The notes under the pieces are model-generated. The model did not search any database. It saw only the letters and a list, made by a program, of their open reading frames with translations, and was not told where the DNA came from. DNA of 49,779 nucleotides from a virus, in IMG/VR virus record IMGVR_UViG_3300047178_000244, positions 1 to 49,779 of that record; one strand, written 5' to 3'. The translations under genes and the position numbers were made by a program. Shown in pieces: positions 10,653 through 44,376 of this stretch. Numbering within the stretch: position 1 is the first letter of the stretch; every line of letters starts with the position of its first letter.

Positions 10653-10662
10653 GGTGACCTCC

Positions 10663-11100
10663 TCAGGCGGCGGCCGGTGGCTGGTTTGCCAAGACCTGCG
10701 CTTGCCTAGCGGCGGTGAGCAGACCTGCGGCGACCAGCGCAGCCAGACCGGCGACGGTCTGCGGGTCCGACAGCACGATGTAGGTGGCGCCCATGGCTTT
10801 CGAGAACCAAAGGAAGACCGCGGCATTGGCCAGGGCCGCCTGCGCGATCGCCTGCTGCTCGGCCGGGGTGAACAGCGCAACAAACTGCAGCGGCGTTAGC
10901 TGCACGGGAATCAGCGCTGCAACCGGCTGAGCCGCCGCGAGCCGGGCGATGACGGCGGCCGCCGTGGTGTCGCTCGCGGGCTTGCACCCGGACGCCAAGA
11001 AAGCGACGTATTCCGGATCGGTCAGCGGCACCCAGGCGGACCTGTCGGTCGCATAGACCTGTGCGGGGGTGTCCGCGGCGAGATAGAACCAGCCTGCCAT
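10663..11100 (-). CDS. Hypothetical protein, position consistent with tail-fibre assembly/chaperone
   Basis: 145 aa with protein-like composition. The GAGGATTACAAAA-ATG initiation cassette precedes it. It lies directly downstream of the fibre gene. Confidence 0.55.
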   Translation of the reverse strand: MAGWFYLAADTPAQVYATDRSAWVPLTDPEYVAFLASGCKPASDTTAAAVIARLAAAQPVAALIPVQLTPLQFVALFTPAEQQAIAQAALANAAVFLWFSKAMGATYIVLSDPQTVAGLAALVAAGLLTAARQAQVLANQPPAAA

Positions 11101-25607: not shown

Positions 25608-25618
25608 GTCTCCGATCC
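25608..25618 (-). promoter_or_regulatory. Late-module motif GGATCGGAGAC (copy between portal and protease genes)
   Basis: It lies in the 100-nt portal-protease spacer. Confidence 0.4.
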
Positions 25619-25661
25619 GGGCGGCCTACGCGCTCTGACGCAATGCGTTCGGGCCCGAGGA

Positions 25662-27416
25662 TCAGTCCGGCTTCTCGTCTTCCTGGAGGTCCGTGGCGCC
25701 CTTCTTGGCGTCCGCAGGCGCGGTCCCGGACCAGTCCGGCGGCGTCATGTTGCGCTCCTTGAAGAACGCGAGCTCGACGGCCCTCTGCTCCACGTTCTCC
25801 TGCCAGTCGCTGCCGTTTTCATCGGCGCAGACGTCGCGCAGCGTCCTGATTCCGGCTTCCATGCCCAGGACTTCCGCCTGCCTTTCTTTCACGCCATCGA
25901 TCACCCCCGCACCCGGCCCGCGCCAGCCGCAACGGGAGTAATACTCGCGCGCCTCGACGAAATCCGGGGCACCGGCGGGCAGCGGGACCAGTCCGCGCTC
26001 GTGAACCTCCTGCAGCCAGACGGCGTAGTGCTTGTTCGCGAAGCTCGTGTTGAACTCGGTCACCCTGCGGCGCGCGGTCTTCTCCGTCTGAGCGAAAGCG
26101 GCCCGGACAGAGCTGTAGTTGACCTTCGAGAAATCTTGCGTGAGCCCCTCGAACGGAATGTTGAGTGCAGAGGCCGTGTTCCTGAGCATCTCGGCGGCAA
26201 AAGGCCCAAAACCTGCGTTCGGCCTCTCCGCGGTGACGGTCTCGATGGACTCACCGGCGGCCAACGTAGGGATGGATACCCCGTTCATCTGCGGGCGGCG
26301 CTCCTCATGGAAGGCTGCCCGGTAATCCTGGTAGGCACCCAGGCCGCCGAGATTCAGGCCGTCGCCCGTTGGGCTCAGCTCGTCTTCTGCCAAGGCCGGG
26401 TCGAAAGGGCTCTTGATGAAAAGGCCGAACATGCTGGCAACGGTGGCCGCCTGCAGCTCCACGCCGTAGTATTTCGACAGCATCTTCATGCGACCCATAA
26501 CGGGCGTGAAAACGCCAACTCCCCTGTGCGTGTCAGCCCTGTTGCGGACGGTGTGGTGCAGCACGCGCTGCCAGCCGTCGTCGTCCTCACGCTCCACGCG
26601 CTCCCAGATGTAGGAGTCCGACATGTCGTAGAAGCTGTTGGGCTCGCCCTTCCGCATCCAGTATGCCTGCGGCGCGCCGCGGCGCTCGTCGAGCTCGATG
26701 CCGCCGCGGAGGAACTGGTGGTCCATCTGCTGGAAGGGATTCGACAGCCGGTCCGGATCGATGATCTGCAGCGAGGTGGCAAATTTCGCGCGGCCGCGCC
26801 CGATGTCCTCGGGGAACCACAAGTGAACCCCGAGCGCCTCGCCGTCGACGAGGTAATGCCAAAGCGCCTGCCTAAATTGTTGCGTGGTCGTCAGTGACCG
26901 GTGGACGTCGTTCCAGTGCCCGTTGGACTCCGAGTAGGCACGCCACAGGCTCTCGACCGTTTTCCGGTATTCGTTAGCCCATACTGCGTCGAAGCCTGGG
27001 CCGAACTCGCGCGACAGGCTGATGTAGTCAGGGGTACAGGTCAGCCGGTATGTGCCGCCGAGCAGCGCGTCCAGCATCCTGTCAATCCCGCCGCCCGCCC
27101 AACCGTCGTTGCGCACCAGGTCGCGGCTGCGGGCCACCATGCGGTCGCGGTAGAGGTTCGTTTCGGCGTCCGGACCTTTTACAACCGGCAGCCACTCGGA
27201 CATTTCCTGCGTAGAGACGGCGGCCGCATCATACGGATACGCAAAACCCTGCCAGCCGCCCTGGAGTCCCGCCTTGTGCTTGGGGCGCACGGTGTCCGCG
27301 ATGGGGACGATGCCGCCGTTCCCGATCGTGGGTTCGCGGCGCGGCTGCGCGGGGGTGCTTCCCGGGATGATGAGGCCGCCGATGCGGCTGATAATACCCA
27401 TTTTCGTGAACCTCAA
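25662..27416 (-). CDS. Portal protein, lambda gpB family (start TTG 27416 or ATG 27401)
   Basis: LYRDRMVARSRDLVRNDGWAGGGIDRMLDALLGGTYRL is typical of lambda-type portals. 584 aa. Confidence 0.9.
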   Translation of the reverse strand: MRFTKMGIISRIGGLIIPGSTPAQPRREPTIGNGGIVPIADTVRPKHKAGLQGGWQGFAYPYDAAAVSTQEMSEWLPVVKGPDAETNLYRDRMVARSRDLVRNDGWAGGGIDRMLDALLGGTYRLTCTPDYISLSREFGPGFDAVWANEYRKTVESLWRAYSESNGHWNDVHRSLTTTQQFRQALWHYLVDGEALGVHLWFPEDIGRGRAKFATSLQIIDPDRLSNPFQQMDHQFLRGGIELDERRGAPQAYWMRKGEPNSFYDMSDSYIWERVEREDDDGWQRVLHHTVRNRADTHRGVGVFTPVMGRMKMLSKYYGVELQAATVASMFGLFIKSPFDPALAEDELSPTGDGLNLGGLGAYQDYRAAFHEERRPQMNGVSIPTLAAGESIETVTAERPNAGFGPFAAEMLRNTASALNIPFEGLTQDFSKVNYSSVRAAFAQTEKTARRRVTEFNTSFANKHYAVWLQEVHERGLVPLPAGAPDFVEAREYYSRCGWRGPGAGVIDGVKERQAEVLGMEAGIRTLRDVCADENGSDWQENVEQRAVELAFFKERNMTPPDWSGTAPADAKKGATDLQEDEKPD

Positions 27417-29086
27417 AACATCGGGCGGATGGGGCGGCGTTTACGGACGAGCCCGAGTGCGCCAGCCAAATCGCGAATTCTCTTCCGTAAACCGTCGGCA
27501 TTTGCGCTCGTGTAGGTGACCGACTTCCCACCCGCGCCCTGGCTGTAGGAGATGTTGACCTCCCTCTGGCCGCTCTCCAGGTCCTGGAGGGCCGCCTGGG
27601 AGTCCGCCAGCCATTGCTGGAGGGTCGCCACGGGCACCCCGATGTATTCGGCCGGGACCGTGGGCCTGTTCCAGGAGCCGGTGCAGCCGCCGATGAAGTC
27701 CCATCCCTGGGGCTGGAGGGTCGCCGGTGCCGCGAGGACCGCGAGGCCCGCCCCGATGGCGCCTGCGCCGACCGAAAGGTTCGCGGGGTTGCCATAGAAA
27801 TCCGTTATAGTAATGGGGGTAACGCCAGCCGTAACAGCGACCGTTATCCCTGTTATCGTAACGCTCCCGGAGACCTCGCCCTGCGCCTGGGGGCTGTAGA
27901 CGAAGCCCAGCATCGGGCCGCTCGCGTATGCAAGAGGCACCTGTGCACCATTGGAGAGCACGAGAGACACGGCAGCGCCGGGAGCCACCACGACGGGCTT
28001 GCTGAAGCTGACCCGGACCTCCGTAGATCCGCCGCCCAGGCTGACGGTAGTGGTGGTCGCGACCGCGCCGGTGACCACGGCGGCCGTGCCGTCGAGCAGG
28101 ACGTCTGGAAGCAGCGCGGAGACGTAGGCCGCACCCCAGAGAGGGTTCCCAGACATGTCCGTGATGCTCGCACCGGCGGCCAGGACGAGCGCGCCGACCT
28201 GCAGCTGGCCCGGCGCCTGACCGACGGGAACGGCGACGCGGAAAGCGAGCCGGGTCGAGGTGGTCTGGGTCAGATCGGCGGCCGCCACGCCAGCCGATGT
28301 CGCCAGGGTGAGGATGCCGACGGCGACGCACGGCTTGCTGAGGCCGAGGAAGATTTCGATTTCCTGGGCAGCACCGTAGAGCCCGGCCTGCGCCGAGATG
28401 GTGCCGACCTTGGGCATGACCCCGTCGATGATTACGCCAGCCAAGGAAACAGCCGCGCCTCCAAGGACAAGCGGGTTCCCGGCTGCGTCGGTGAGGCCCG
28501 CGCCGGGGTTCAGGAAAGAGACGGCCAGCGGGTTCGCCGACATGCCCCATTGAACCGTCAGATCGAAGCGCAGGTTCTGGCTGGTGCTGCCGGTGGGATT
28601 GTAGACGGCCGCGCCCACGCCCGTGAACAAGACCGGAGGCTGCGCGGCGTCCACGAGGCGGACCGGGGTGGACGTCGCGACGTAGATCGGGATTACGGAC
28701 TCGCCCGAGTAGGTGCCCGCGGCTGCGCTGACGCCGGTGATCGTGGGCAGCGCGGCGGCCGCATAGACCCCGTTCAGCACGCCAGCGGTGACGCCTCCGG
28801 AGAGCGGAAGCCCGGTCGCCACGGAGACGATTGAGCCGCCGTTGAGGGCGAGGTCCGTTACGGCCAGCTGCACGGCGAGCCCGGCTGGAACGAGGAACGC
28901 GAAGACGGCGACCGCGCCCTGCTGCGACGAGAAGGATGCCGCGCCAGCGTTCAGGTCTAGCGATGGCGACGGTCCCAGCAAGGAAACCGGTGCCGAGAAG
29001 GTTACGGAAATCGGGATGACCGAGCCTGCGCGGTAGTTTCCAGCCGGTGCGGTGACGCTGAGCACGGTGAGCGGGCTGCCGGACAC
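27413..29086 (-). CDS. gpW-like head-tail joining domain fused to four tandem Ig-like repeats (557 aa)
   Basis: The C-terminal 70 aa, VATLQQWLADSQAALQDLESGQREVNISYSQGAGGKSVTYTSANADGLRKRIRDLAGALGLVRKRRPIRPMF, align by eye with lambda gpW (..AALHDLMTGKR..VEFTATSVSDLKKYIAELE..RRRGPAGF). Upstream are four ~111-aa repeats, each starting (V/I)xxxxAxAGxYxxGxxIxI and ending xLxxGxxIxDxxGNPL. GTG 29086 has AGGAG 7 nt upstream. Confidence 0.75.
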   Translation of the reverse strand: MSGSPLTVLSVTAPAGNYRAGSVIPISVTFSAPVSLLGPSPSLDLNAGAASFSSQQGAVAVFAFLVPAGLAVQLAVTDLALNGGSIVSVATGLPLSGGVTAGVLNGVYAAAALPTITGVSAAAGTYSGESVIPIYVATSTPVRLVDAAQPPVLFTGVGAAVYNPTGSTSQNLRFDLTVQWGMSANPLAVSFLNPGAGLTDAAGNPLVLGGAAVSLAGVIIDGVMPKVGTISAQAGLYGAAQEIEIFLGLSKPCVAVGILTLATSAGVAAADLTQTTSTRLAFRVAVPVGQAPGQLQVGALVLAAGASITDMSGNPLWGAAYVSALLPDVLLDGTAAVVTGAVATTTTVSLGGGSTEVRVSFSKPVVVAPGAAVSLVLSNGAQVPLAYASGPMLGFVYSPQAQGEVSGSVTITGITVAVTAGVTPITITDFYGNPANLSVGAGAIGAGLAVLAAPATLQPQGWDFIGGCTGSWNRPTVPAEYIGVPVATLQQWLADSQAALQDLESGQREVNISYSQGAGGKSVTYTSANADGLRKRIRDLAGALGLVRKRRPIRPMF

Positions 29087-29135
29087 GTGAGAGCTCCTGC
29101 CGCAGGAAAGGGCGTTCCCAGCGTAGCGGCAGGCG

Positions 29136-29145
29136 GCTCCGATCC
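29136..29145 (-). promoter_or_regulatory. Late-module motif variant GGATCGGAGC (copy upstream of the Ig-gpW gene)
   Basis: It is intergenic, 6 nt after the HTH gene stop. Confidence 0.35.
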
Positions 29146-29151
29146 GGTCGG

Positions 29152-29370
29152 CTACCCGGCGCGGACGCGGCGACGCCAGCCGACCGGCGGCGGCAGATCG
29201 CCGTGGGCTGCTACCAGGCTGCGCAGCCATTCTGCTACAGCAGGCGGCACGGTGCGGTCTGCGGAAACCCATCGGCGCACGAGACGATCATCAGCATCGA
29301 GCGAGGCGGCGAGCCAGCGCATCGACCAGCCGAGCGCATCGAGGCATTTCACGAGTTCTTCGGGGGGCAT
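29152..29370 (-). CDS. Small HTH regulator divergent from the antisense island
   Basis: 72 aa: MPPEELVKCLDALGWSMRWLAASLDADDRLVRRWVSADRTVPPAVAEWLRSL (HTH-like). AAGGAG RBS precedes ATG 29370. Confidence 0.65.
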   Translation of the reverse strand: MPPEELVKCLDALGWSMRWLAASLDADDRLVRRWVSADRTVPPAVAEWLRSLVAAHGDLPPPVGWRRRVRAG

Positions 29371-29546
29371 TTTAGGGTCTCCTTTTCCTGTTCCGATGGT
29401 CCCTACCCGCGAGGCACGAGTCAAGACTCTTGAATGTCTGACAACAGGTTTGACAAATCGAACGCTGCGTCAAACGCAGGTAAGCCATGCGCGAAACGGA
29501 TAAACGACTTGCTCGCATTCTGCCGCACCAAGGGGGACTATAAATG

Positions 29547-29581
29547 CAGAGGCGGACACGAACCCCACCGCCACGGAGAGA
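29547..29581 (+). repeat. Conserved 5' leader element copy 1 (CAGAGGCGGACACGAACCCCACCGCC-ACGGAGAGA)
   Basis: 26 nt are identical to 30415..30440, and a shared ACGGAGAGA RBS block follows. It contains the hairpin GGCGG-12 nt-CCGCC and ends 5 nt before ATG 29587. Confidence 0.85.
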
Positions 29582-29586
29582 GCATC

Positions 29587-30249
29587 ATGAGCCACGCTTA
29601 CGAAATCGGCGCGAGTGAGGAGATGGACCGGCTGAAGCTGGTTTTCGAAGATGCAGCGTTCGGCGTGCGGGCGATGCAGGGTGTAAACCGCGTGGGCGGT
29701 CGCCGCGACGCTTCCGGCAAGACGACACACTACGTTTTCCCGCCGGAAGTCAGGGGCGACGTCGAGGCGGCGATCGCGAAGGCCGTGGCTCGCGAGGAAG
29801 CGCAGCGCGTCTGGGAAGCTGCCGCTCCGCAGCGCGAGGCCGAGGCCAAGGCGGCGCAGAAGCGAGCGAAAGCCGAGGCGAAGGCAGCCGCTGACGCCGC
29901 GGTAACCGCAGAAATCGGGAAATGGACTCAAGACGGCGCGGTTTGCTTCCTGCGGATTGAATACGCGAAGGGCGCTCCGCTGAAGCTTCGGGCGGCTGGA
30001 GCAAGCTGGGACTCTATCGGCAGCGTCTGGGTTTTCCCGTTCTCCGCCCGCCCGGCCGTCGAAAAGCTGCTGCCGAAGCTGAAGGATCTGGCCATGAAGC
30101 AACGCAAGCGCGATGCACAGAGCGCCCGTGGTCTGCTGGATCTTAGCGACGACATGCTTGAGCAAATGGCCAACGATGGCGTATTGGGCAACGACATAAA
30201 CGCGAGCGGCGCCGATCTCCGCCGCGAGATTCGAGCTTGCCGCATCTGA
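29587..30249 (+). CDS. Island gene A: hypothetical protein with Ala/Lys/Glu-rich linker and a DUF5710-like C-terminal motif
   Basis: 220 aa. VCFLRIEYAKGAPLKLRAAGASWDSIGSVWVFPFSA resembles the Y-x-x-K-x-x-x-K-x-x-GA-x-WD-x-x-x-K-x-W-x-VP domain. GGAGAG RBS precedes it. Confidence 0.6.
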   Translation: MSHAYEIGASEEMDRLKLVFEDAAFGVRAMQGVNRVGGRRDASGKTTHYVFPPEVRGDVEAAIAKAVAREEAQRVWEAAAPQREAEAKAAQKRAKAEAKAAADAAVTAEIGKWTQDGAVCFLRIEYAKGAPLKLRAAGASWDSIGSVWVFPFSARPAVEKLLPKLKDLAMKQRKRDAQSARGLLDLSDDMLEQMANDGVLGNDINASGADLRREIRACRI

Positions 30250-30269
30250 GCGGAGCAATCGAAGCAATG

Positions 30270-30300
30270 GGGCCGCTTCCGAGAACGGGGCGGCCCTTTT
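30270..30300 (+). terminator. Rho-independent terminator after island gene A
   Basis: GGGCCGC-13 nt-GCGGCCC followed by TTTTG. Confidence 0.7.
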
Positions 30301-30414
30301 GCTGTCCGGAATTTGCGTGGACAATTCGTATACTGCAACTAGTGCATACCTGGATATTGCGGCAAGCATGAACGTGAACTTTGCCTCCTGCCGCATTTTG
30401 AGGGACCATCGGAT

Positions 30415-30450
30415 CAGAGGCGGACACGAACCCCACCGCCCACGGAGAGA
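30415..30450 (+). repeat. Conserved 5' leader element copy 2
   Basis: Same as 29547..29581 with one extra C. It ends 5 nt before ATG 30456. A shared TGCCGCA box lies upstream (29521 and 30389). Confidence 0.85.
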
Positions 30451-30455
30451 ACGTC

Positions 30456-30893
30456 ATGACCGACATCATCGCCGACGGACCCGTAGCCGAAGTCGTGCAG
30501 CAGCTGGTTGTGGACATCGACCACGCCCACGACTGGACCCTCGACATCAACTTGGCTGTCGCCAGGTCGGCACGTGCGCTCCAGACCATGACGAAAGCCG
30601 ATTGCGGGGCATATGCCCGCTACTACGCAGTGACAATCCTGGACGCCCTGGAAGCCTGCGATGCGCGCATAGGCAACCCGCAGCCCGAAGGCACGCTGGA
30701 GTGGATACTCAACGGCATGCCACCTGCCGATGGCTTCTGCGAGGCAGATCTTGTAGCTCGCGGCGCGCTGTCCTCGCTCGTGGGCGCGCTGGAAAACCTC
30801 AGGTCCGAAGACGGCGGGCGGAACGATTTCTACGCCCTGGAGAGCCGTTGCGCCGATGCGGCGCTCGTGAGCTGCCTGCCCACCGCGGCATAG
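30456..30893 (+). CDS. Island gene B: hypothetical acidic protein (145 aa)
   Basis: The ORF is preceded by the conserved leader and a GGAGAGA RBS. I recognise no motif. Confidence 0.6.
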   Translation: MTDIIADGPVAEVVQQLVVDIDHAHDWTLDINLAVARSARALQTMTKADCGAYARYYAVTILDALEACDARIGNPQPEGTLEWILNGMPPADGFCEADLVARGALSSLVGALENLRSEDGGRNDFYALESRCADAALVSCLPTAA

Positions 30894-30964
30894 CATCGGC
30901 GACCAAGGACAGCCCGCCGAGGCCCGCCACCGGACACGGGGCGCGCCTTTTTCATGCCATAAAG

Positions 30965-30981
30965 GGTGCACACATGCATCG
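30965..30981. promoter_or_regulatory. 17-nt element GGTGCACACATGCATCG upstream of island gene C
   Basis: Identical to 44935..44951. It contains TGCA-CACA-TGCA. Confidence 0.45.
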
Positions 30982-31032
30982 CCAGCGCTATCATTGGCGC
31001 AAGGGTGCAAGCCCACGGACCAGGAGGACTAC

Positions 31033-31620
31033 ATGACCAGCCTTCCCGACTACGAGATGGGGTTCATCAACGGCGACAGAGGATGCCCGCCTGTTCCCCA
31101 GTTCTCCCCCGAGTTCAGGCGCGGGCATGATCACGGTGTCGCCCATAGAAAGTATCGCCAGGATAAGGAAGCGGAAAACATTTCGGCGGCGGCTGCCCGC
31201 AAGGCCGCAGGCGACATTTTCAGCAACGGAGTTCGCCTGTCCGATGGCCTGATTTATACGGCAGAATGGGACCGCGACGGCTGCGACAGGCAATTCCTAG
31301 CCGGATACCACACCTTCGATATTTACCGGCAGGATCGACAGAACGAGCGCGACTATTGCGGCACGATGCATGTAGTCGCCAGGGACGACCTCGGCCTTAT
31401 AGCCTTCTACCCGGTCGAACGCTTCTGCCACGCAGAGGATTACGTCGCTCCCGAACCCGAACCCAAGCCGAAGCGGCCATCTGGTTCCAATGCCGACGAT
31501 TGGGTGCTTTTCCTCGACGAGAACCTTCGCATCGAGAACGGCCGCATCAGCGGTATCGGTTACCTAGCTGTGCAGATCGCCGAGGCGCTGGATTGCTTAA
31601 AGACGATAGGGGGCGCGTGA
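31033..31620 (+). CDS. Island gene C: hypothetical protein (195 aa)
   Basis: AGGAGG lies 6 nt upstream of ATG 31033. GC is lower than the surroundings. Composition is rich in D/R/Y/F. I recognise no motif. Confidence 0.6.
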   Translation: MTSLPDYEMGFINGDRGCPPVPQFSPEFRRGHDHGVAHRKYRQDKEAENISAAAARKAAGDIFSNGVRLSDGLIYTAEWDRDGCDRQFLAGYHTFDIYRQDRQNERDYCGTMHVVARDDLGLIAFYPVERFCHAEDYVAPEPEPKPKRPSGSNADDWVLFLDENLRIENGRISGIGYLAVQIAEALDCLKTIGGA

Positions 31621-32477
31621 TGACCCCGTCCATCATCGCCATCCACGGCCGCGCCGGGGCAGGCAAGGGCGTCATCTCAGGTCACCTCGTCGAGCGGCAC
31701 GGCTACACGGCCGTGAAGGTCGCCGCCCCGATAAAAGCCATGATGCGGGCAGCTCTCATGTATGGCGCCGGGCTCTACGGCGATGACCCGGACCTGGACC
31801 GCTGCATCGAGGGCGACCTCAAGGAGGTTCCCGTCCCGCGACTAGGCGGACACACCCCGCGCTACGCTATGCAGATTCTCGGCACCGAGTTCCAGGACGC
31901 GGTCTGCCGCGGAATATTTGCGCGCATCGCGGCGGAGGCGACCCGCAAGGTTGTCGCCGCTGGCGGCCGAGCCGTCGTGGACGACCTGAGGTTCCCGGTG
32001 GAGGTCCGCCACCTGAGGGAGCAGGGCGCCGCGTTCTGGCGCGTTGACCGCTCCGACGTCCAGGAGCTCGCCGCAGGTCGCTGCCGCCGCTCCACCCCTT
32101 GGGACCCGTCCGAGCCGCCGCGCGTGCCCGATCAGGTTGTGGTAGACCACATGGTCTGGGCGCTTCTCATGAGCTGCGGTCTGGACGACAAGGAAGCCCT
32201 GCAGAGGGCTGTGGGATACCGCGGCGACGAGCCCTGGGCATACATCGGCAAGTCGGCGAACGTGTGCCGCTACGCCTTGTCGGCAATCTGGCTCGAACGG
32301 CTGCGGCGACCGGCTCCGGCCGTCACGCACGCCTCGGAGCGCGGGCTGCCCGCTAAGACGTTCGACGTCGTTCTCGTGAACAAGGGGACCACCCACGACC
32401 TGCGCCGTGAGGTTGAGTGCGCCCTTCAGAGGTCGCCGCAGCCTTACTACGGCATCGCGGACAGGAGGGCGGCATGA
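31620..32477 (+). CDS. Island gene D: P-loop dNMP-kinase-like protein with a ~90-aa insertion
   Basis: The Walker A is IHGRAGAGKGV. APIKAMM, RYAMQILGTEF and VVDDLRFPVEVRHLREQGAAFWRVDR ... THASERGL ... FDVVLVNKGT match the phage deoxynucleoside-monophosphate kinase pattern. The start overlaps gene C's stop (TGATG). Confidence 0.65.
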   Translation: MTPSIIAIHGRAGAGKGVISGHLVERHGYTAVKVAAPIKAMMRAALMYGAGLYGDDPDLDRCIEGDLKEVPVPRLGGHTPRYAMQILGTEFQDAVCRGIFARIAAEATRKVVAAGGRAVVDDLRFPVEVRHLREQGAAFWRVDRSDVQELAAGRCRRSTPWDPSEPPRVPDQVVVDHMVWALLMSCGLDDKEALQRAVGYRGDEPWAYIGKSANVCRYALSAIWLERLRRPAPAVTHASERGLPAKTFDVVLVNKGTTHDLRREVECALQRSPQPYYGIADRRAA

Positions 32478-32671
32478 CTTGCTACGCCCCCGTCGCCCGC
32501 CGCCCGCACTCCGACGCGGCCGACGAGAACCTGGACCACTGGCCTTATCCGGCGTCCCTGGACATCTACGAGGCCGACCGACGCCCGGTGGACACTGGCC
32601 TCCTGGACGGTCACGGAACGCCCATATACCGGCTGCCCGAGCAGCGCCGCATCGGGTTCCGCCCCCTATAA
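32474..32671 (+). CDS. Island gene E: hypothetical 65-aa protein
   Basis: AGGAGGG RBS. ATGA overlap with gene D. Confidence 0.5.
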   Translation: MTCYAPVARRPHSDAADENLDHWPYPASLDIYEADRRPVDTGLLDGHGTPIYRLPEQRRIGFRPL

Positions 32672-32683
32672 AAAGGACGGACC

Positions 32684-33007
32684 ATGGGACAGCTGGTGAC
32701 CGTGGGGGCGCCCACCTTGGAGGACGATGGTCACGCCTTCCACGGCATGCGGGGCATCGTCGCGGGCATCGGCGACCGTCTGGTGGGCCTCGTCCACGTT
32801 CGGACCGGGACCCTGTCGTTGCTGCTGCCCGTCAAGCAAATAGTCGCATCGGTTGGGTGCCGACACAGGGCCGGTCGGGTGGACACGCGGAATTATTCTG
32901 CCGACGAAGTCATCCGCAGGGTGGAAGCCGATATCGTCACGGGAAGCGCATCCAGGAGATCGTCCGACAGGATGGTGCAGGCCATGCTCAGGGCCCGCGA
33001 AGCCTGA
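32684..33007 (+). CDS. Island gene F: hypothetical 107-aa protein
   Basis: AAGGA lies upstream of ATG 32684. It is the last gene before the shared terminator. Confidence 0.5.
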   Translation: MGQLVTVGAPTLEDDGHAFHGMRGIVAGIGDRLVGLVHVRTGTLSLLLPVKQIVASVGCRHRAGRVDTRNYSADEVIRRVEADIVTGSASRRSSDRMVQAMLRAREA

Positions 33008-33034
33008 AACCACCGCGTGCCACCAACCACCGAC

Positions 33035-33064
33035 GCCCGCTTCCACCTGGAGGCGGGCCTTTTT
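33035..33064 (+). terminator. Rho-independent terminator closing the island (abuts the terL stop codon)
   Basis: GCCCGC-12 nt-GCGGGC followed by CTTTTT. On the minus strand no U tract follows the hairpin. Confidence 0.7.
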
Positions 33065-35133
33065 CATGCCATCCGCCGCACCAGGGCCCGCAACCGCTCC
33101 TGCCGGGTCATCTGCTTCGACGCGGGCGCCGCAGCCGGTGGCTTGGACTGCGCGGGAGTGGCGGCGGCCGGTGCCGGGACATGGGCGGCCTGGGGCTCGG
33201 GGGCGTCCGGGAGCGGCGCGACGTCGTCGGGCGGCTCGGGTGCGGGCCGTGCCGGTTCGCCGGGCGCCGGGCAGACGTGGGCGGCGAGCTGGTTGAGCTT
33301 CAGGCCGTAGAAGGCGAGCCCGCACAGCGCGGCGTAGGCGTAAACCCGGATGTCGAGGGCTTCGTTGGCACGCCCGGAACGCTGTTCCCACACCCGCACC
33401 TTCACGCCGCGGACCGTCTTCTCGACCAGGGACTCGGCGAGGAGCTGGGAGAAATAGCCGAGGTCGCGTTCCGCCGGGAAGTGCATGTAGCCCGGTGCCG
33501 GGCCGCCGTCCTCCGGCCGTTCCTGGGCGAGCCGGGACCGGATGATGTCCTTGGCGGCGTTCACGCCGATGGTGATCGGGCGGTAGCTCGCCTTCGCCCG
33601 CGACGTCGGCCTCTTCGTGGGCCACACGGGGCTGCGCGCGCCGCCGATGGCCGGATCGCCCCTGATGGCCCACCACTTCCGCGCGAGGTTGGCCCGGGAG
33701 AAGTTGTAGATCGCCTGGGTGCGGCGGCCGCCGGAGTCGAGGCACGCGGCCACAACCTTGAACTCGACGCCGTCCGCCCGCTTCCACTTCCTCTTCAGGA
33801 ACTCGGCCAGCTTCTCCATGGTCTCCGGATCGTCCGGGTCGCCGTCGATGACCTCGTGCGCGATGCTCCACGACTCTTCGTTCGCCCCCCAGCCGACGAC
33901 CTCGACCTCAAGCCGAGCCTGATGGGTGTCCACGCCCGCCGTCAGGATCGCGACGCCGTCGGGCACCTCCGCGTTCCAGACCTCCGTGCGCGCAGCCAGC
34001 TTGTTTTCCGACAGGTCCTGCTCGCCGCGGTCCTCGAAGGTCTCGCCCAAGACGAGGTTCACGAACGTCTGCAAGGCCAGCGGATCGCTCTTGGCTTCCA
34101 GGAACTCGGCGACGAGCTTCGGCCAAGCGGCGTTGACCATAAGGCTCATGCCCGACCACAGGTGAAACCCCGCCAGCCCCGGCGCCTTGGCCTTCTTCGT
34201 AGGCCGCCAGACGCCGCGGGCATCCATCCACGGCAGATCCACCCACTCGATGCGGCAGCCCTTGCCCTCGCAAACGTAATGGGCGGTCTCGGGCAAGTGC
34301 GTGCCGTCCTCGGCCTTCTCCCACTTGATGCCGTGCGCGACGTCGGCCCCGCCCCACTTTAGGTATTGCTCGGTCTTGCAGTGCGGGCACGGGACGAAGA
34401 ACCGCCGCTGGTCGGTGTCCTTCCAGGCCTTGTCGATGCGGGAGATGGCCGATTTCGTAGGGGTGGACCCCAGCACCATGCGCCGGTTCCAGAAGGTCTC
34501 GCCACGCTTCCACGCCAGCCCGACTTGATCGCCGTCCGCCCCGGCGCCGCCAACGTGATAGCCGTCCACTTCGTCGAGCAGCATGATCCGGCAGGTTATG
34601 CCGCGGAAGCCGTCCGGGGAGTTTGACCCGATGAGCCGCAGCGAGCTGCCGTTCAGGAAGCTCTTTTTCGTAATCGTCTGCGCGGTGTCGCGGGCCCTGG
34701 CCGGGGGGCACAGTTCGGCGAGGACCGGCGTATCCCGCAGCATCGGGGCGATTTCCGACTTGCTGTAGTCCTCGGCGTCCTCGCCGCGCGGCCGGACCAC
34801 GAGGATGGGCGCCGGGTCCTGATGGATGTAGTAGCCGATGGCGTGGTCCAGCACCCGGGTGAAGCCGACGCGGGCGCTCTTCTTGACGATGATCCTGTCC
34901 AGGGTCGGGTCGGTGATCGCGTCCATCAGGCCGACCTGGTAGCCGTAAGCCGTGAAGGCGCCCGTCTGGGAGTTGGTCTCACGGCTGAGGACCGCATGCT
35001 CCTTGGCCCACTCGCTCAGGGTCAGCTTGGGAGGCGGCCGTAGGTTCAGCACCCGTGCGTTAGCCAGGGCAAAGCGCAGCGCCTCCAGGCCATCGGCATA
35101 GCGTTCGGCGGGGATGTCAGGCCGCTGGCGCAT
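33064..35133 (-). CDS. terL: Terminase large subunit, lambda gpA family
   Basis: 689 aa. The Walker-A-like segment is IIVKKSARVGFTRVLDHAIGYY. The C-terminal nuclease region is typical of Terminase_GpA. It overlaps the small-subunit gene. Confidence 0.95.
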   Translation of the reverse strand: MRQRPDIPAERYADGLEALRFALANARVLNLRPPPKLTLSEWAKEHAVLSRETNSQTGAFTAYGYQVGLMDAITDPTLDRIIVKKSARVGFTRVLDHAIGYYIHQDPAPILVVRPRGEDAEDYSKSEIAPMLRDTPVLAELCPPARARDTAQTITKKSFLNGSSLRLIGSNSPDGFRGITCRIMLLDEVDGYHVGGAGADGDQVGLAWKRGETFWNRRMVLGSTPTKSAISRIDKAWKDTDQRRFFVPCPHCKTEQYLKWGGADVAHGIKWEKAEDGTHLPETAHYVCEGKGCRIEWVDLPWMDARGVWRPTKKAKAPGLAGFHLWSGMSLMVNAAWPKLVAEFLEAKSDPLALQTFVNLVLGETFEDRGEQDLSENKLAARTEVWNAEVPDGVAILTAGVDTHQARLEVEVVGWGANEESWSIAHEVIDGDPDDPETMEKLAEFLKRKWKRADGVEFKVVAACLDSGGRRTQAIYNFSRANLARKWWAIRGDPAIGGARSPVWPTKRPTSRAKASYRPITIGVNAAKDIIRSRLAQERPEDGGPAPGYMHFPAERDLGYFSQLLAESLVEKTVRGVKVRVWEQRSGRANEALDIRVYAYAALCGLAFYGLKLNQLAAHVCPAPGEPARPAPEPPDDVAPLPDAPEPQAAHVPAPAAATPAQSKPPAAAPASKQMTRQERLRALVRRMA

Positions 35134-35764
35134 CGGGGTCGCGGTCGCTGACGAGGGCCCTGAGGATCTTGGTGATGGCGGTCTCGAGGTAGTCCCGGAC
35201 CTCCGCAGGCGTGCGCAGCCGGGCTATCGGTTCCGCATGCTCCGCGGCGAGGGAGAGGAAGGCCGTCCGGACGGTGGCGAACTCCCGGCCGACGGAGGCT
35301 GCGACCTCGGACACGACCACCACGGCATGGCTCTCGATGTCGTAGGCCAGCCGCTCGCGAAGCGCCTTGAAGGACTCCTTGATCCTTTTGGCCTCGTCGA
35401 GCGTCCACTCCGTGCCGGTGGTGCGGAGGATTTCGGCGGCCAGGGCGTCGGCGTCGGCCGAGTTTACAGCGTCGTCGTCATCGTCCTCGTCGTAAACCTC
35501 AGGCGCCCGGTTTACGGGGCGGTTTACAGGCTCCGTGTCAGCGGATTTCCTGGGCTCCGATCCGCCCACGCGGTAGCGATCCAGCCGCTCCTTGGTCGCC
35601 GCGACGTCCACGAGACGGTCCCGGAAGACGACCTTGCCCTCGGCCTTCCACTTGGTGACGGCCATGCGGGAGACGCCCATCGCGCGGGCGAACTCGGCCT
35701 GGGTTACGAGATTTCCGATGGTCGCCCCGAGCTCGCCGCCAGCCAAATCTGTTGATTTCGGCAC
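35117..35764 (-). CDS. terS: Terminase small subunit (Nu1-like, N-terminal HTH)
   Basis: VTQAEFARAMGVSRMAVTKWKAEGKV is the HTH. It lies immediately upstream of terL and overlaps it. Confidence 0.8.
   Translation of the reverse strand: MPKSTDLAGGELGATIGNLVTQAEFARAMGVSRMAVTKWKAEGKVVFRDRLVDVAATKERLDRYRVGGSEPRKSADTEPVNRPVNRAPEVYDEDDDDDAVNSADADALAAEILRTTGTEWTLDEAKRIKESFKALRERLAYDIESHAVVVVSEVAASVGREFATVRTAFLSLAAEHAEPIARLRTPAEVRDYLETAITKILRALVSDRDPDAPAA
35554..35563 (-). promoter_or_regulatory. Late-module motif variant GGATCGGAGC (inside terS coding sequence)
   Basis: Same orientation as the other copies. It encodes GGSEP in terS. Confidence 0.25.
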
Positions 35765-35927: not shown

Positions 35928-36128
35928 TCATTCATCCTGCACCGGCCCGTCTCCGATCCGCGCAGGTTTCTGGGGCAGCATGGCGCGCCACACCGCGACG
36001 GCCGCCAGCATGTCGTCGAGTGGCACGTCGAAACGGAAACATACCGAGTTCGCCCACCTGAAGAACACAGGAATGGATACGGCATATTTTCCGTTGTCAC
36101 CCACGATGGTGGCGCGAGACAGGCTCAT
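35928..36128 (-). CDS. Hypothetical 66-aa protein (uncertain)
   Basis: AGGAG lies 10 nt upstream of ATG 36128 and composition looks protein-like. However, its 3' end contains one copy of the late-module motif. Confidence 0.4.
   Translation of the reverse strand: MSLSRATIVGDNGKYAVSIPVFFRWANSVCFRFDVPLDDMLAAVAVWRAMLPQKPARIGDGPVQDE
35949..35959 (-). promoter_or_regulatory. Late-module motif GGATCGGAGAC (copy ~185 nt upstream of terS)
   Basis: Same orientation. It lies in the 3' end of the doubtful 66-aa ORF. Confidence 0.35.
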
Positions 36129-38098: not shown

Positions 38099-39328
38099 AT
38101 GAACAGCGACGCCACAGGGGTGGCAGGATTCCGCCAGGAGTCCGCCGCTTCCGTAAGAGCCGAAGCCGCCGCGCTCGGTATCTCGAAATCAACCGCCCAC
38201 CGCCGCCGCCAGACCAGCCAGGCCGAGCAGATCCGCCAGCTGCAGGAGACGGTCGCCGCCCTGGAGGCATCACGGGCCCAGCCGCAGCCTGCCCAGTCTG
38301 CCCAGCCCCCTCGCCCGCGCCCGGCCTTCGGCTTGCGCCCCGTCGCCCTGCCGAAAGCAGTCGTGGCCGCCCGGGTGGCCCCTGCCCCGGTTTCCCTGCC
38401 GGTGGCGCGCCAGCCCGAACCAGAGCCCGAGATCCAGATGCCTGTGGCCGAGCCGTTGGTGCAGACGGTCATCCGGTCCGAGGGGCGCCGCCGCCTCGTG
38501 GGCCGGGAAGCGTCGAGCGTGGTCCGGAAGGTGCTGGTGATTACTGACACGCATTGCCGCCCCGAGACCCTGCCGAGGGTGCGCCGGGTCATGAAGATGA
38601 TCGGGCTCTATGCCGCGGTCCTTCAGCCCGACGATGTCGTCCACGGCGGCGACGGAAACGATAACGAGAGCGTGTGCCCGCACATCGGAAACGGAACGCT
38701 GCGCGGGCGCCGGAAGCCGTCCATCCAGAAATGCTTCGGGGCTTTCCGGGATGCGATGAAGACGCTGACCGACACCCTCGACGAGGGCGGCGTCACCAAG
38801 CGGCGGCACTACTGTTACGGAAATCACGACGTGTGGCCTGCCGAGTTCGAGGACGAGCATCCTGAGCTCGAGGGCATCATAACCGGGCTCTACTCGTCTA
38901 TCTTCCGCGACATGGGCTGGACGACGTCGGCCTACGGCGAGCGGTTCTATCTCGGCGGCGTCGCCTACACGCACGCGGTGCTCAGCAAGAAGAGCCAGGC
39001 GGTTAGCGGACTAGACACTGAGAAGATGATCGGCCGCGACGCGGACTGCGACATGGTCGTGGGACACACCCACCAGCAGGCCGACATCACCCGCGACAAC
39101 CGGCACGGCAAGCGCGTCCGCATCGTCAACGCGGGCAGCTCCATGCCCCAGGATTGGGTTCCCGACTGGGCCGAGTACACGCAGGCGGCCGAGATCGACT
39201 ACGGGGTCCGAGTGGTCCTCGACTGCGACGGGCACATCAGGAGCACGCGCTGGATCACCATGGCCCAGCTCGAGGAGCGCTACGGCGCCGAGGCGGACCG
39301 AATCCTTGCCGAGGGAGGCGTGCGATGA
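38099..39328 (+). CDS. HTH-domain / proline-rich linker / calcineurin-like metallophosphoesterase fusion
   Basis: The N-terminal resolvase-type HTH is AAALGISKSTAHRRRQ. Phosphoesterase motifs are ITDTHCRP, HGGDGNDNE, YGNHDVW and VVGHTHQQ. Confidence 0.8.
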   Translation: MNSDATGVAGFRQESAASVRAEAAALGISKSTAHRRRQTSQAEQIRQLQETVAALEASRAQPQPAQSAQPPRPRPAFGLRPVALPKAVVAARVAPAPVSLPVARQPEPEPEIQMPVAEPLVQTVIRSEGRRRLVGREASSVVRKVLVITDTHCRPETLPRVRRVMKMIGLYAAVLQPDDVVHGGDGNDNESVCPHIGNGTLRGRRKPSIQKCFGAFRDAMKTLTDTLDEGGVTKRRHYCYGNHDVWPAEFEDEHPELEGIITGLYSSIFRDMGWTTSAYGERFYLGGVAYTHAVLSKKSQAVSGLDTEKMIGRDADCDMVVGHTHQQADITRDNRHGKRVRIVNAGSSMPQDWVPDWAEYTQAAEIDYGVRVVLDCDGHIRSTRWITMAQLEERYGAEADRILAEGGVR

Positions 39329-42339: not shown

Positions 42340-44376
42340 GTGCCCGTACGTTCCACCGGTTTGCGCCGAAAGACTGCCGACAACGGCTTCCCCGATGTCG
42401 ATGATCCAGCCCTCGAGCCCCGCGCTGAGCCCGAGGACCCTGCTCTGCTGGCGGCCGCGCGCATGTTGTCGGACGCGTGCGACCGGCCATCGCCAGCCGG
42501 GGATGCCGCAGCGAAGCCCGGCGCGGTTGTCGTCATCATTTCGCCGTCGAAAGCCTGGGCTCCGTTTCTGCTTCGGGCGCTGCCGCGCGTGCTGCGGGGA
42601 ACGCCGCTTGAGCGGATGGCGGTGCCGTCCCGGCCCGGGAGCTTGCCGGACCGCTGGGGCCGATCCGCAGACATGCCGACGTGGCGACTGCCGAGCGAGC
42701 CGCATCACGCCCGAGAGGCCGCGGAGGAGCTGGAAGAGTCGGTGTGGTCCGGACACGGGTGCGTCTGCGTGAGCCACGATGTTGAGCTAGTGCCAGAGGT
42801 GCTGCGCGAGGCGGCGGATGCCGTCATCGAGGTCGATGAGCCCGGCGCCGGGGCGCTGCTGGCCGTATCCGGCGTGTGCGCGGACGGACCGGCGGAGTGG
42901 CCGCACGGCGAGCCCCAGACGCCGCTCACGCCGGGGATGATTCGGAGCGCGTTCCGCGCCGGTTCGACGGTCGCCGATTGTCACGCGCGGATGCGGAAAG
43001 CTCTGCCAGGGAAGGCTCCGAGTGCGAAACCGGTGGTTGCGGAAAATCGCGCCTGGACATTAGATCACTTGCGCGGGCAGCCGGAAGTCGCCGCATGGGG
43101 CCGTGCCCTGGCGGAGGACCTGCGGGCCTGGAAGGCCGGTGAGCTGGCGTGGGCCGATGTCGCTCCGGGCTGCATGCTGGTCGGGCCGCCGGGAACCGGA
43201 AAGACCAGCGCGGCACAGGCGATTTCCGGCACGTGCGGGGTTGAGCTGATTGCGACTTCGTTTTCTCGGTGGACTGCAAGCGGACGCGGATACCAGAGCG
43301 ATTGCTTGAAGGCGATGCGGGATTCCTTCGCGGAGGCCGGGAAGAAGTCGCCCTGTATTCTGTTCATCGACGAACTGGACAGTATTCCGGCCCGCGGCAC
43401 TTCGAAGGAATATGATGATTACTGGCGGCCCATCGTAAACAGCATGCTCGAATGTCTAGACGGCGTCGATGGCCGCGAGGGCGTTGTCGTAATCGGTGCG
43501 GCGAACGATGTCCGCGGCATCGATAGTGCGGTGCTCCGTAGCGGGAGGCTTGACCGGATCATCCGGGTCGATCTCCCGGACGCCGCCGCGCTCGCTGAGA
43601 TTCTGGCCGACCACCTCGGCGACGGATGGCACCCGGCAGACCTGGGCAGGCCTGCGCGGCTGCTCCTCGGTCGGTCGGGCGCCGACGCCGCGCGGGCGGT
43701 GCGGGATGCAAAGCAGACGGCGAGGCAGGCCAGGCGGCCGGTGACGGTGGATGACATCGTTCGGGCGTGCCGGGGTAAACCGCGCTCGGAAGACGAGGTA
43801 TGCGCAGCCGCGTTGCACGAAGCCGGGCATGTCGTCGTCCATGAAGCGATGAGGCCGGGATGTGTCGTTGACGTGAACATCGTGGCGGTGAACGGGGCGC
43901 TCGGGGTTACGCGGACGCTGCAGCCCGGGGAAATGGCCGAGGATATGGAAAGATTCTTGGTCGGCACGCTCGCAGGGCGGGCGGCGGAAGGCATCGTGCT
44001 CGGCGGCGGAACGGCCGGTTGCGGAGGCGACCCGGGTTCCGATCTCGGGGTGGCGACGACACTGCTTGTCCGCGCACGGCTGTCGACGGGGCTCTACGAC
44101 CGCCTTGCGTGGCACGGCGACGTGAGGAGCCGGGAGGCCGCCGAGATGATGCGGGAGAACTCCGATTTGGCCCGCTGGGTCGAGGAACGGTTACTGAAAC
44201 TGTCGGCCAGGGCAGAGGAGATTCTCGAGGAGCGCAGGCCGCAACTGATGGCGCTGGCCGGTGCTTTGGTGGAACGAATGGTGCTGACCGGCGATGATGC
44301 GCGGGTCGTCATCGGGGGCGCCGGATGCCGGGAGGCGAAGGCTCTGGAAGCCCGGAATGAAGGAGGCCCGCGATGA
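42340..44376 (+). CDS. Soluble FtsH-like AAA+ ATPase / M41 zinc metalloprotease with a ~270-aa unknown N-terminal region
   Basis: Walker A is GPPGTGKT and Walker B is ILFIDELD. Also present: GAANDVRGIDSAVLRSGRLDR, the zinc site AALHEAGHVVVHE, and GGDPGSDLGVATTLLVRARLSTGL. No hydrophobic N-terminal helices are seen. GTG 42340 has GAGGTG 5 nt upstream. Confidence 0.85.
   Translation: MPVRSTGLRRKTADNGFPDVDDPALEPRAEPEDPALLAAARMLSDACDRPSPAGDAAAKPGAVVVIISPSKAWAPFLLRALPRVLRGTPLERMAVPSRPGSLPDRWGRSADMPTWRLPSEPHHAREAAEELEESVWSGHGCVCVSHDVELVPEVLREAADAVIEVDEPGAGALLAVSGVCADGPAEWPHGEPQTPLTPGMIRSAFRAGSTVADCHARMRKALPGKAPSAKPVVAENRAWTLDHLRGQPEVAAWGRALAEDLRAWKAGELAWADVAPGCMLVGPPGTGKTSAAQAISGTCGVELIATSFSRWTASGRGYQSDCLKAMRDSFAEAGKKSPCILFIDELDSIPARGTSKEYDDYWRPIVNSMLECLDGVDGREGVVVIGAANDVRGIDSAVLRSGRLDRIIRVDLPDAAALAEILADHLGDGWHPADLGRPARLLLGRSGADAARAVRDAKQTARQARRPVTVDDIVRACRGKPRSEDEVCAAALHEAGHVVVHEAMRPGCVVDVNIVAVNGALGVTRTLQPGEMAEDMERFLVGTLAGRAAEGIVLGGGTAGCGGDPGSDLGVATTLLVRARLSTGLYDRLAWHGDVRSREAAEMMRENSDLARWVEERLLKLSARAEEILEERRPQLMALAGALVERMVLTGDDARVVIGGAGCREAKALEARNEGGPR

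What the first reader, a model, noticed from the sequence alone, without database searches (positions are those of the whole stretch)
29152..33064. Six-gene island transcribed antisense inside the head-morphogenesis module, between terL and gpW
In lambda-type modules the order A-W-B is contiguous. Here 3.9 kb lie between terL (stop 33064) and the gpW-domain gene (start 29086). Six plus-strand genes (29587..33007) are bounded by a canonical terminator that abuts the terL stop. A divergent small HTH gene (29370..29152) shares a palindrome-rich control region with them.

Only two products give hints: a DUF5710-like motif in gene A and a dNMP-kinase-like P-loop protein in gene D. Four are unrecognisable. 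The terminator at 33035..33064 has a U tract only for the island strand. Late transcription from terS/terL would therefore read antisense through the island, implying mutually exclusive expression: island on in the lysogen, silenced late. That is the behaviour expected of a prophage-encoded defence, exclusion or lysogenic-conversion cassette.
Basis: partly seen in the sequence, partly recalled or inferred. Interest (0 to 1): 0.8.

Follow-up and report, generated by a model that had tools for sequence, protein, structure and literature searches.

The report
Accessory gene island splitting phage head genes
A 3.9-kb block of foreign, mostly unrecognisable genes with their own start and stop signals sits backwards between two head-assembly genes of a temperate phage; it is a real but fairly ordinary kind of cargo island whose function is still unknown.

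Summary
Between terL (stop 33064) and a gpW-domain gene (start 29086) lie six plus-strand genes and one small divergent minus-strand gene. Five relatives with 55-60% identical terL have terL-gpW-portal contiguous, so this is an insertion, not morphogenesis.

The island is three promoter-gene-terminator cassettes: A, B and the translationally coupled C-D-E-F. The small gene's promoter shares a motif with that of B that occurs nowhere else in the genome, so it belongs to the island.

D is a confident dNMP-kinase-family enzyme with an ~85-residue helical insertion. B and C are orphans. A has two known relatives.

D, E, half of F, A and the terminator hairpin recur in one other phage-like contig from the same study. 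There they lie in a long early-type gene array behind a Prim-Pol. Long-form D homologues also sit in Dot/Icm-type conjugative elements.

No gene matches a known defence family. Homologue contexts lean towards early or establishment functions.

The contig is a circular phage genome, not an integrated prophage.

Verdict: a mosaic moron-type island at an unusual site, a new member of a known kind.

The parts
33064..35133 (-). terL (lambda gpA type); its stop codon marks the right border of the insertion
   Evidence: GpA_ATPase and GpA_nuclease, phrog_15 E 1.6e-224
33035..33065 (+). Terminator tF ending the C-D-E-F operon. Unidirectional. Its 3' half plus the last terL codons (33052-33072) is duplicated at 30940-30960.
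   Evidence: A 20/21 repeat arose in 0 of 40 Markov simulations.
32684..33007 (+). Gene F (107 aa). Codons 1-57 are homologous to a 61-aa gene of L024. The C-terminal 50 aa lie beyond the homology breakpoint.
32474..32671 (+). Gene E (65 aa). ATGA overlap with the D stop codon.
   Evidence: phrog_23102 E 2.8e-8; 60% identical homologue in L024; sequence
31620..32477 (+). Gene D (285 aa): dNMP-kinase-family P-loop enzyme with an ~85-residue helical insertion (residues ~150-235)
   Evidence: PF21448 36 bits (cut-off 27.1); phrog_139 E 8e-29; alignment A4; AF2 pLDDT 90.7; Foldseek to T4 dNMP kinase 1DEK and viral dNMP kinases
31033..31620 (+). Gene C (195 aa). Orphan. Its TGA stop overlaps the ATG of D.
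30967..30994 (+). Promoter-like site for C-D-E-F (TGCACA-16-TATCAT)
30919..30960 (+). Terminator tB after gene B, followed by a copy of the terL-stop junction (TTTTTCATGCCAT)
30456..30893 (+). Gene B (145 aa). Acidic (pI 4.2). Orphan.
30381..30455 (+). P_B (TTGCCT-17-GACCAT) and a leader that carries the 24-nt stretch identical to the leader of A
30269..30301 (+). Terminator tA after gene A. The same hairpin occurs four times in L024.
29587..30249 (+). Gene A (220 aa). Near-orphan. Linked to a small HTH-like gene in three replicons.
29371..29586 (.). Divergent control region. Contains P_HTH (TTGACT 29424-29419, GACCAT 29401-29396, minus strand), four palindromes (29421-29479), and the P_A leader (29509-29586).
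29152..29370 (-). Small (72 aa) basic HTH-like gene. It belongs to the island and lies 66 nt upstream of the gpW gene with no terminator between them.
27413..29086 (-). gpW-domain gene (557 aa; gpW is only the C-terminal ~70 aa). Left border of the insertion.

Best explanation
The block is a mosaic, self-contained accessory ('moron-type') island. It was acquired horizontally and inserted exactly at the terL stop codon of a circular temperate myophage genome.

Structure. It consists of three independent plus-strand transcription units: P_A-A-tA, P_B-B-tB and P_C-C-D-E-F-tF. A small divergent Cro-like gene has a promoter of the same family.

Origin (inferred). The cassettes were assembled stepwise by recombination at conserved terminator and promoter linker sequences shared with at least one other phage-like element of the same community.

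Function (inferred). The genes are not head components. The only assignable activity is D, a dNMP-kinase-family phosphotransferase made in fixed ratio with C and E through overlapping stop and start codons. I think it most likely that host RNA polymerase transcribes the island from its own promoters, under control of the small HTH protein bound at the palindromes. I also think it serves the phage's DNA and nucleotide economy, or its establishment at infection or induction, as its homologues appear to do in the early array of the other element. A role in the virion or as a known defence system seems less likely.

Shown: the insertion, the cassette anatomy, the shared linkers, and the fold and motifs of D. 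Inferred: the promoters, the regulation, the timing and the biological role.
For: Insertion:
- phiAP1, phiNP, L010 and L012 (and BZS1 by annotation) have terL-gpW(~90 aa)-portal contiguous.
- GC is 62.2% over HTH-A-B-C, against 66-69% for the flanks.

Cassettes:
- Three plus-strand terminators lack minus-strand U tracts.
- ~170 nt upstream of A and of B are homologous, including a 24-nt identical leader found only twice in the genome.
- GGGACCATCGGA[AT]CAG occurs only at P_HTH and P_B.
- TGATG and ATGA overlaps join C/D and D/E.

Shared linkers and modules:
- Window 31611-32855 is ~80% nt identical to L024.
- A is 61% aa identical to its L024 homologue.
- The tA hairpin is present four times in L024.
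- The 20/21 duplication of the terL-stop junction behind B is non-random.

D:
- Pfam DNMK above its cut-off; all family-invariant residues kept.
- pLDDT 90.7; best folds are T4 and other viral dNMP kinases.

Context of homologues:
- An early-type co-directional array after a Prim-Pol.
- A helicase-TopoIII-thioredoxin-D block of Dot/Icm elements.
- Short-form dNMP kinases sit beside replication genes in lytic phages.
Against: - No expression data exist. The promoters are weak consensus matches that the generic scan did not call.
- B and C are orphans and A is a near-orphan, so three of six products carry no functional information.
- The A model is low-confidence and matches nothing.
- Long-form D in conjugative elements, which do not degrade host DNA, hints that its substrate may not be dNMPs.
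- The nature of L024 (phage or other mobile element) was judged from 21 kb of a 78-kb contig only.
Confidence: 0.45

Rival explanations
1. This is a lysogen-expressed defence, superinfection-exclusion or lysogenic-conversion cassette. It is on in the prophage from its own promoters and is silenced or overridden by convergent late transcription after induction.
For: - Antisense placement, own unidirectional terminators, a divergent small regulator and lower GC.
- Published prophage defence genes (TerI, Tab, Tai) are likewise transcribed from the strand opposite to lytic genes (bioRxiv 10.1101/2025.02.27.640495).
- Defence genes are often orphans.
Against: - No PADLOC hit for any of the seven proteins.
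- No membrane segments.
- Homologues of D, E, F and A lie in an early-type polycistronic array and in conjugative elements, not in defence islands.
- The phage already carries a recognisable RM module at the usual place next to the integrase.
- No lysogen is observed, since the contig is circular.
Confidence: 0.25
2. The left part (HTH plus A, perhaps B) is a secondary immunity or antirepressor-type switch embedded in the late region, analogous to P22 immI (mnt/arc/ant). The small protein represses a divergent gene whose product alters the lysis-lysogeny decision or acts on other phages' repressors.
For: - Divergent back-to-back promoters with several palindromes lie between a 72-aa basic protein and gene A.
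- A is adjacent to a small HTH-type gene in three different replicons.
Against: - A matches no antirepressor family (Ant, KilA, Bro, Rha) in Pfam or PHROGs.
- The HTH assignment is weak.
- The analogy is from my own knowledge of P22 and was not tested.
Confidence: 0.1
3. The island is largely functionless cargo: recombination debris or hitch-hiking selfish cassettes tolerated at a permissive junction.
For: - F is a chimera whose last 50 codons lie beyond the homology breakpoint.
- B and C have no relatives among 1.8-5.8 billion proteins.
- A duplicated junction scar is present.
Against: - All six ORFs are intact with ribosome-binding sites and a coding GC pattern.
- D keeps every invariant residue of its family.
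- D, E and A are 60-71% identical to L024 homologues over full length, and the first 54 residues of F are 80% identical. This implies purifying selection.
Confidence: 0.1
4. The genes are unrecognised head-morphogenesis or packaging components of this phage lineage.
For: Only their position between terL and gpW supports this.
Against: - They are on the opposite strand with their own terminators.
- They are absent from all relatives with the same head module.
- Homologues lie in non-structural contexts.
Confidence: 0.02

Closest known systems
Morons of lambdoid and other temperate phages (promoter-gene-terminator units inserted between conserved genes, e.g. in HK97/HK022; own knowledge)
   Same: - Extra genes absent from relatives at the same junction.
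- Each unit is bounded by its own promoter-like site and intrinsic terminator.
- Composition differs from the flanks.
- The units lie inside the late region.
   Different: - This is a cluster of three units (six genes) plus a dedicated divergent regulator, not a single gene.
- It lies at the terL/gpW junction, which is normally uninterrupted.
- It runs antisense to the late operon.
- Expression from a repressed prophage, which is part of the concept, is untested.
P22 immI region (mnt, arc, ant), a secondary control region embedded in late genes (own knowledge)
   Same: A small repressor-like gene is transcribed divergently from a cassette, with palindromic operators between them, inside the virion-gene region.
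   Different: - There is no sequence or family similarity to Mnt, Arc or Ant.
- The orientation relative to the late operon is reversed.
- Four further genes, including a kinase, are attached.
Prophage defence genes transcribed opposite to lytic genes (TerI/TERi of Listeria phi10403S; Tab and Tai; bioRxiv 10.1101/2025.02.27.640495)
   Same: Opposite-strand placement inside a lytic module, with its own promoter.
   Different: - Those are single small proteins with cognate counter-defence genes on the other strand.
- There is no homology here.
- No phenotype is known here.
Phage dNMP kinases (Pfam PF21448 DNMK; T4 gp1, PDB 1DEK)
   Same: D has the fold, the P-loop and all family-invariant residues. 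Short-form relatives are common in phage replication modules.
   Different: - D carries an ~85-residue helical insertion. That insertion is shared only with a small long-form subgroup found in L024 and in Dot/Icm-type conjugative elements.
- It sits in a temperate phage's late region.
- Its substrate is unknown.

Membership tests
Moron / accessory island | Gene(s) present between two genes that are adjacent in related phages | tested here: met
   terL-gpW-portal is contiguous in phiAP1, phiNP, L010 and L012. Relatives share only 55-60% terL identity; no closer ones were found.
Moron / accessory island | Own terminator downstream of the unit | tested here: met
   tA, tB and tF: hairpin plus T run on the plus strand only. 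The tA hairpin is conserved in L024.
Moron / accessory island | Own promoter upstream of the unit | tested here: inconclusive
   TTGCCT-17-GACCAT (B), TTGACT-17-GACCAT (HTH) and TGCACA-16-TATCAT (C) are conserved elements but weak consensus matches. There are no transcript data.
Moron / accessory island | Base composition different from neighbouring phage genes | tested here: met
   HTH-A-B-C 62.2% GC with GC3 0.72-0.78, against flanks at 66-69% with GC3 0.81-0.90. D-E-F (67.9%) is not different.
Moron / accessory island | Expressed from the repressed prophage | not testable with these tools
   Needs RNA from a lysogen.
Known anti-phage defence systems (PADLOC-DB v2) | Match of at least one protein to a defence-system HMM | tested here: not met
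   0 families at E <= 0.1 for HTH, A-F and the gpW fusion.
dNMP kinase family (PF21448) for gene D | Profile match above the curated cut-off | tested here: met
   36.0 bits against 27.1; phrog_139 E 8e-29.
dNMP kinase family (PF21448) for gene D | P-loop and family-invariant residues; NMP-kinase fold | tested here: met
   G15, K16, K39, K68, R81, Q85, D121, D122, R124, E128, H237, S239 and N254 are invariant in 21 sequences. pLDDT 90.7. 1DEK TM 0.52/0.61. BFVD dNMP kinases E 6e-9.
dNMP kinase family (PF21448) for gene D | Phosphorylates dNMPs | not testable with these tools
   Needs an enzyme assay.
DUF5710 (PF18974) for gene A | Profile match | tested here: not met
   No hit in A or the L024 homologue at E <= 10. 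There is only a 16-residue hit (E 0.031, 14.4 bits against a cut-off of 26.5) in Rhodovastum P0002.
HTH transcription regulator for the 72-aa gene | Match to an HTH family | tested here: inconclusive
   No Pfam or NCBIfam hit. phrog_3626 E 5.8e-4 and phrog_4779 'transcriptional regulator' E 3.5e-3. It shares the motif DDRLVRRW..R.VP with plasmid proteins.

The most novel reading that the evidence does not exclude
The C-D-E-F operon, built around the insertion-bearing long form of the dNMP-kinase family that is otherwise confined to Dot/Icm-type conjugative elements and one other phage-like element, is a new nucleotide-acting system of mobile elements. It would be either a counter-defence that repairs or alters nucleotide pools or signals, or a defence that acts on incoming DNA metabolism. 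It would be kept under a private Cro-like switch and parked antisense in the late operon so that it is uncoupled from virion production.
Probability: 0.12. Interest if true: 0.7.

Novelty: new member of a known kind. Interest (0 to 1): 0.35.

Why it matters
It shows that the terL/gpW junction of lambda-type head modules, usually regarded as uninterrupted, can accept a multi-cassette cargo island.

It gives a clean example of cassettes bounded by conserved terminator hairpins and promoter leaders that are shared between different mobile elements of one community. This is the kind of linker that would let genes move between early and late regions.

It also defines a long-form subgroup of the dNMP-kinase family, shared by phages and conjugative elements, whose role is unknown. 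If the island proved to protect or arm the phage, B, C, E and F would be new functional families. As it stands, this is a candidate list rather than a discovery.

Tried and rejected
**Closer relatives**
- I searched for closer relatives of the phage to find an empty or differently filled junction. The genome, metagenome and viral scans with terL gave only relatives at 59% identity or less. Megablast against phages found nothing. An exact-protein look-up of terL was not on record.

**Homology searches**
- A has 2 hits.
- C has only itself plus a 41-residue C-terminal match. The gene following that match is not D-like.
- B, in an exhaustive search, has only weak hits to Ig/PKD repeat giants, which I judged uninformative.
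- PDB sequence searches of HTH, A, B and C gave nothing meaningful.

**Structure of A**
- pLDDT was 67.5 and Foldseek returned no match at E <= 0.001, so I discarded it.

**RNA and leader**
- Rfam and tRNA scans of the whole contig were empty.
- The shared leader of A and B has no significant fold.

**Co-occurrence and the hairpin**
- I tested co-occurrence of E, F, A, B and C with dNMP kinases in 80 viral loci and found none.
- The terminator hairpin pattern has no match in IMG/VR.

**Other checks**
- PHROG annotation of the L024 neighbours was uninformative.
- There are no paralogues of island genes elsewhere in the contig.
- The idea that D is a kinase with a C-terminal extra domain was rejected. 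The alignment shows an internal insertion.

Full report
**1. What is there**

The window is a whole contig. Its two ends repeat 127 identical bases, so it is a circular molecule of about 49.65 kb. It carries:
- an integrase (1676-2890);
- an MT-A70 methylase and a BglII-like endonuclease (4978-6550);
- a plus-strand arm of early-type genes (38099 onwards, through the contig ends, to 6550);
- a minus-strand late arm from about 37828 down to 7494.

In the late arm, terS (35764..35117) and terL (35133..33064; GpA ATPase and nuclease domains) are followed only after 3.9 kb by a gene ending in a gpW domain (29086..27413) and by the portal gene (27416..25662).

**2.

Six plus-strand ORFs fill 29587-33007.
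- They have the coding pattern of this genome (GC3 > GC1 > GC2). The long antisense ORFs have the shadow pattern.
- An independent gene caller on an identical 4.7-kb Logan contig gives the same seven genes.
- A, D, E and F have protein homologues elsewhere.

The hairpin at 33035-33058 followed by CTTTTTC is a strong terminator on the plus strand only (-21.2 kcal/mol, z -3.9). In the minus orientation it is followed by GUCGGUGG.

The small minus-strand ORF 29370..29152 and four palindromes at 29421-29479 are present.

- DUF5710 is not detected in A.
- The HTH nature of the 72-aa protein rests on PHROG hits of E 6e-4 to 3.5e-3.

**3. It is an insertion**

The closest available relatives share 55-60% terL identity. 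They are Acetobacter phage phiAP1, Citrobacter phage phiNP, Serratia phage BZS1 and two IMG/VR contigs. All have terL, a gpW of about 90-100 residues and the portal gene directly adjacent. No closer relative exists in the collections searched.

The left part of the island (HTH, A, B, C) has 62.2% GC, against 66-69% for the flanks. D-E-F does not differ.

**4. Anatomy: three cassettes and a regulator**

tA lies at 30269-30297 plus a T run, tB at 30919-30952, and tF abuts terL.

About 170 nt upstream of A and of B are homologous. This includes a 24-nt identical leader that occurs only at these two places in the genome.

The promoter-like element of B (TTGCCT-17 nt-GACCAT-CGGATCAG) recurs on the minus strand in front of the small gene (TTGACT-17 nt-GACCAT-CGGAACAG). 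The 16-mer GGGACCATCGGA[AT]CAG is found nowhere else. The small gene therefore belongs to the island, not to the head operon.

C has its own promoter-like site, TGCACA-16-TATCAT. C, D and E are joined by overlapping stop and start codons (TGATG, ATGA), and F follows after 12 nt.

None of the proteins has a membrane segment. B is strongly acidic, with pI 4.2.

**5. How it was built**

The 21 bases GGCG[C/G]GCCTTTTTCATGCCAT occur twice. They are the 3' half of a terminator plus the stop and the last two codons of terL. One copy is at the true terL end (33052-33072) and one is behind gene B (30940-30960). No repeat of that quality arose in 40 simulated sequences.

The simplest reading, which is an inference, has two steps:
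- An earlier island (HTH-A-B) abutted terL.
- C-D-E-F-tF was then added at the same spot by recombination in the terminator.

A second line of evidence comes from L024, a 78-kb contig from the same study (ERZ12298652 scaffold_588_c1).
- Window 31611-32855 (D, E and the first 57 codons of F) is about 80% identical at the DNA level to L024.
- A has a 61% identical homologue there.
- The tA hairpin GGCCGCTTCCGnnAACGGGGCGGCC is present four times there, each time behind a small gene and in front of a repeated promoter-like element and leader.
- The homology stops inside F, so the last 50 codons of F are a junction product.
- The hairpin is absent from IMG/VR.

These conserved terminator and promoter linkers are the likely recombination substrates.

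**6. What the genes are**

*Gene D.* D matches the dNMP-kinase family above the curated cut-off (PF21448; phrog_139 E 8e-29).
- An alignment of 21 homologues shows that D is not a kinase with an added C-terminal domain. It is a kinase with an internal insertion of about 85 residues.
- All invariant residues of the family are kept, including the P-loop GK, the DDxRF motif and the HxSE motif.
- The model is confident, with pLDDT 90.7.
- It superposes best on T4 dNMP kinase and on viral dNMP kinases.
- Short-form relatives are very common in phages: at least 398 IMG/VR contigs, often beside replication genes.
- The long form is rare. It is found in L024 at 71% identity. At 37-43% identity it is found in Dot/Icm-type conjugative elements, twice in the conserved order helicase, topoisomerase III, thioredoxin-like protein, D-like protein, then DotI and DotH.

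*Gene A.* A has only two relatives: L024 and a Rhodovastum atsumiense replicon that IMG/VR also calls viral.
- In Rhodovastum it is followed directly by a protein with the same DDRLVRRW motif as the window's small protein.
- In L024, the second gene downstream of the A homologue (after a 60-aa gene) is an HTH_3 gene.
- A and a small HTH-type gene therefore travel together.

*Genes B, C, E and F.*
- B and C are orphans among 1.8-5.8 billion proteins.
- E matches a PHROG of unknown function.
- F has no match in any family library; its only relative is the 61-aa L024 gene, so it has no assigned function.

No protein matches a PADLOC defence model.

**7. How it most likely works**

*Shown.* This is a foreign, modular island with private transcription signals that interrupts a head operon without contributing to it.

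*Inferred.*
- Host RNA polymerase starts at the three sigma-70-like promoters.
- The small basic protein binds the palindromes between the back-to-back promoters and sets the level of A, and probably of B through the shared element.
- C, D and E are made in fixed ratio and may act together.

*Biological role.* D, E, F and A sit in L024 inside a long co-directional array of small overlapping genes behind a Prim-Pol and before three DNA methylases. Long-form D also accompanies DNA-processing genes in conjugative elements. I therefore favour an auxiliary DNA or nucleotide role at entry or induction (confidence 0.45 for the whole statement).

Its architecture has good precedents: TerI, Tab and Tai are transcribed opposite to lytic genes. 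Nothing in the sequences supports it specifically.

An immI-like switch (0.1), junk cargo (0.1) and morphogenesis (0.02) follow.

*Antisense read-through.* The inference that late transcription must read antisense through the island is open, for three reasons:
- The small gene's promoter points into the gpW gene.
- No terminator lies in the 66-nt gap between them.
- The motif YGGATCGGAGMC has six exact copies, all on the late strand. One lies in that gap and three more lie just upstream of other late genes.

**8. Verdict**

This is a real feature, correctly located, and best filed as a multi-cassette moron-type island at an unusual junction: a new member of a known kind. Its interest lies in three things: the shared linker sequences, the long-form kinase subgroup, and a set of testable orphan genes. 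No new mechanism has been demonstrated.

Noticed in passing
window 1-127 and 49653-49779: The first and last 127 bases are identical. The contig is therefore a circular ~49.65-kb temperate-phage genome (integrase at 1676-2890), not a prophage seen inside a chromosome.
   Followed up: partly
window 27413-29086 (-): gpW is only the C-terminal ~70 residues of a 557-aa ORF. The N-terminal ~480 residues are A/G/V/S/T-rich and repetitive-looking, with no Pfam hit. Relatives have a gpW of 90-100 aa. This large N-terminal extension on a head-completion protein is unexplained. An internal start for a free gpW was not examined.
   Followed up: partly
window 4978-6550 (+): An MT-A70 DNA methylase (E 2.5e-30) is followed by a BglII-like restriction endonuclease (E 2e-21), close to the integrase. 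This is a recognisable type II RM cargo module in the usual accessory position.
   Followed up: no
window 8460-8471, 10330-10341, 25608-25619, 29135-29146, 35553-35564, 35949-35960 (all minus strand): The 12-mer YGGATCGGAGMC has six exact copies, all on the late strand. Four lie 14-60 nt upstream of late genes, including the gap between the small HTH gene and the gpW gene. It could be a late-gene signal. Conservation around it is poor.
   Followed up: partly
L024 11868-16139 (ENA ERZ12298652 scaffold_588_c1): A run of single-gene cassettes is each bounded by the same terminator hairpin (4 copies) and a repeated TTGCTAGGT...GGTATCCT promoter-like element with a conserved leader. The hairpin has no exact match in IMG/VR. 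The rest of the 78-kb contig could not be fetched.
   Followed up: partly
L031 and L032 (ENA metagenome contigs), positions 1-11000: Gene order is conserved in Dot/Icm-type conjugative elements: a large AAA_34 helicase, topoisomerase III, a 435-aa thioredoxin-like protein, a long-form dNMP-kinase-like protein, then DotI and DotH. The kinase-like gene appears to be a backbone gene of unknown role.
   Followed up: no
window 31474-31596 (C residues 148-188): The C-terminal 41 residues of orphan protein C are 66% identical to the C-terminus of an otherwise unrelated 243-aa protein (P0053, Logan SRR30224782). This suggests a small shared C-terminal module.
   Followed up: partly
window 42340-44376 (+): An FtsH-like AAA+/M41 protease gene lies in the early arm, flanked by calcineurin-like phosphoesterase genes (38099-39328, 44373-44894). 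This is unusual phage cargo.
   Followed up: no
window 33064-33270 (terL residues ~620-689): terL ends in a ~65-residue proline/alanine-rich tail that is not aligned with relatives. It lies just before the insertion point.
   Followed up: no
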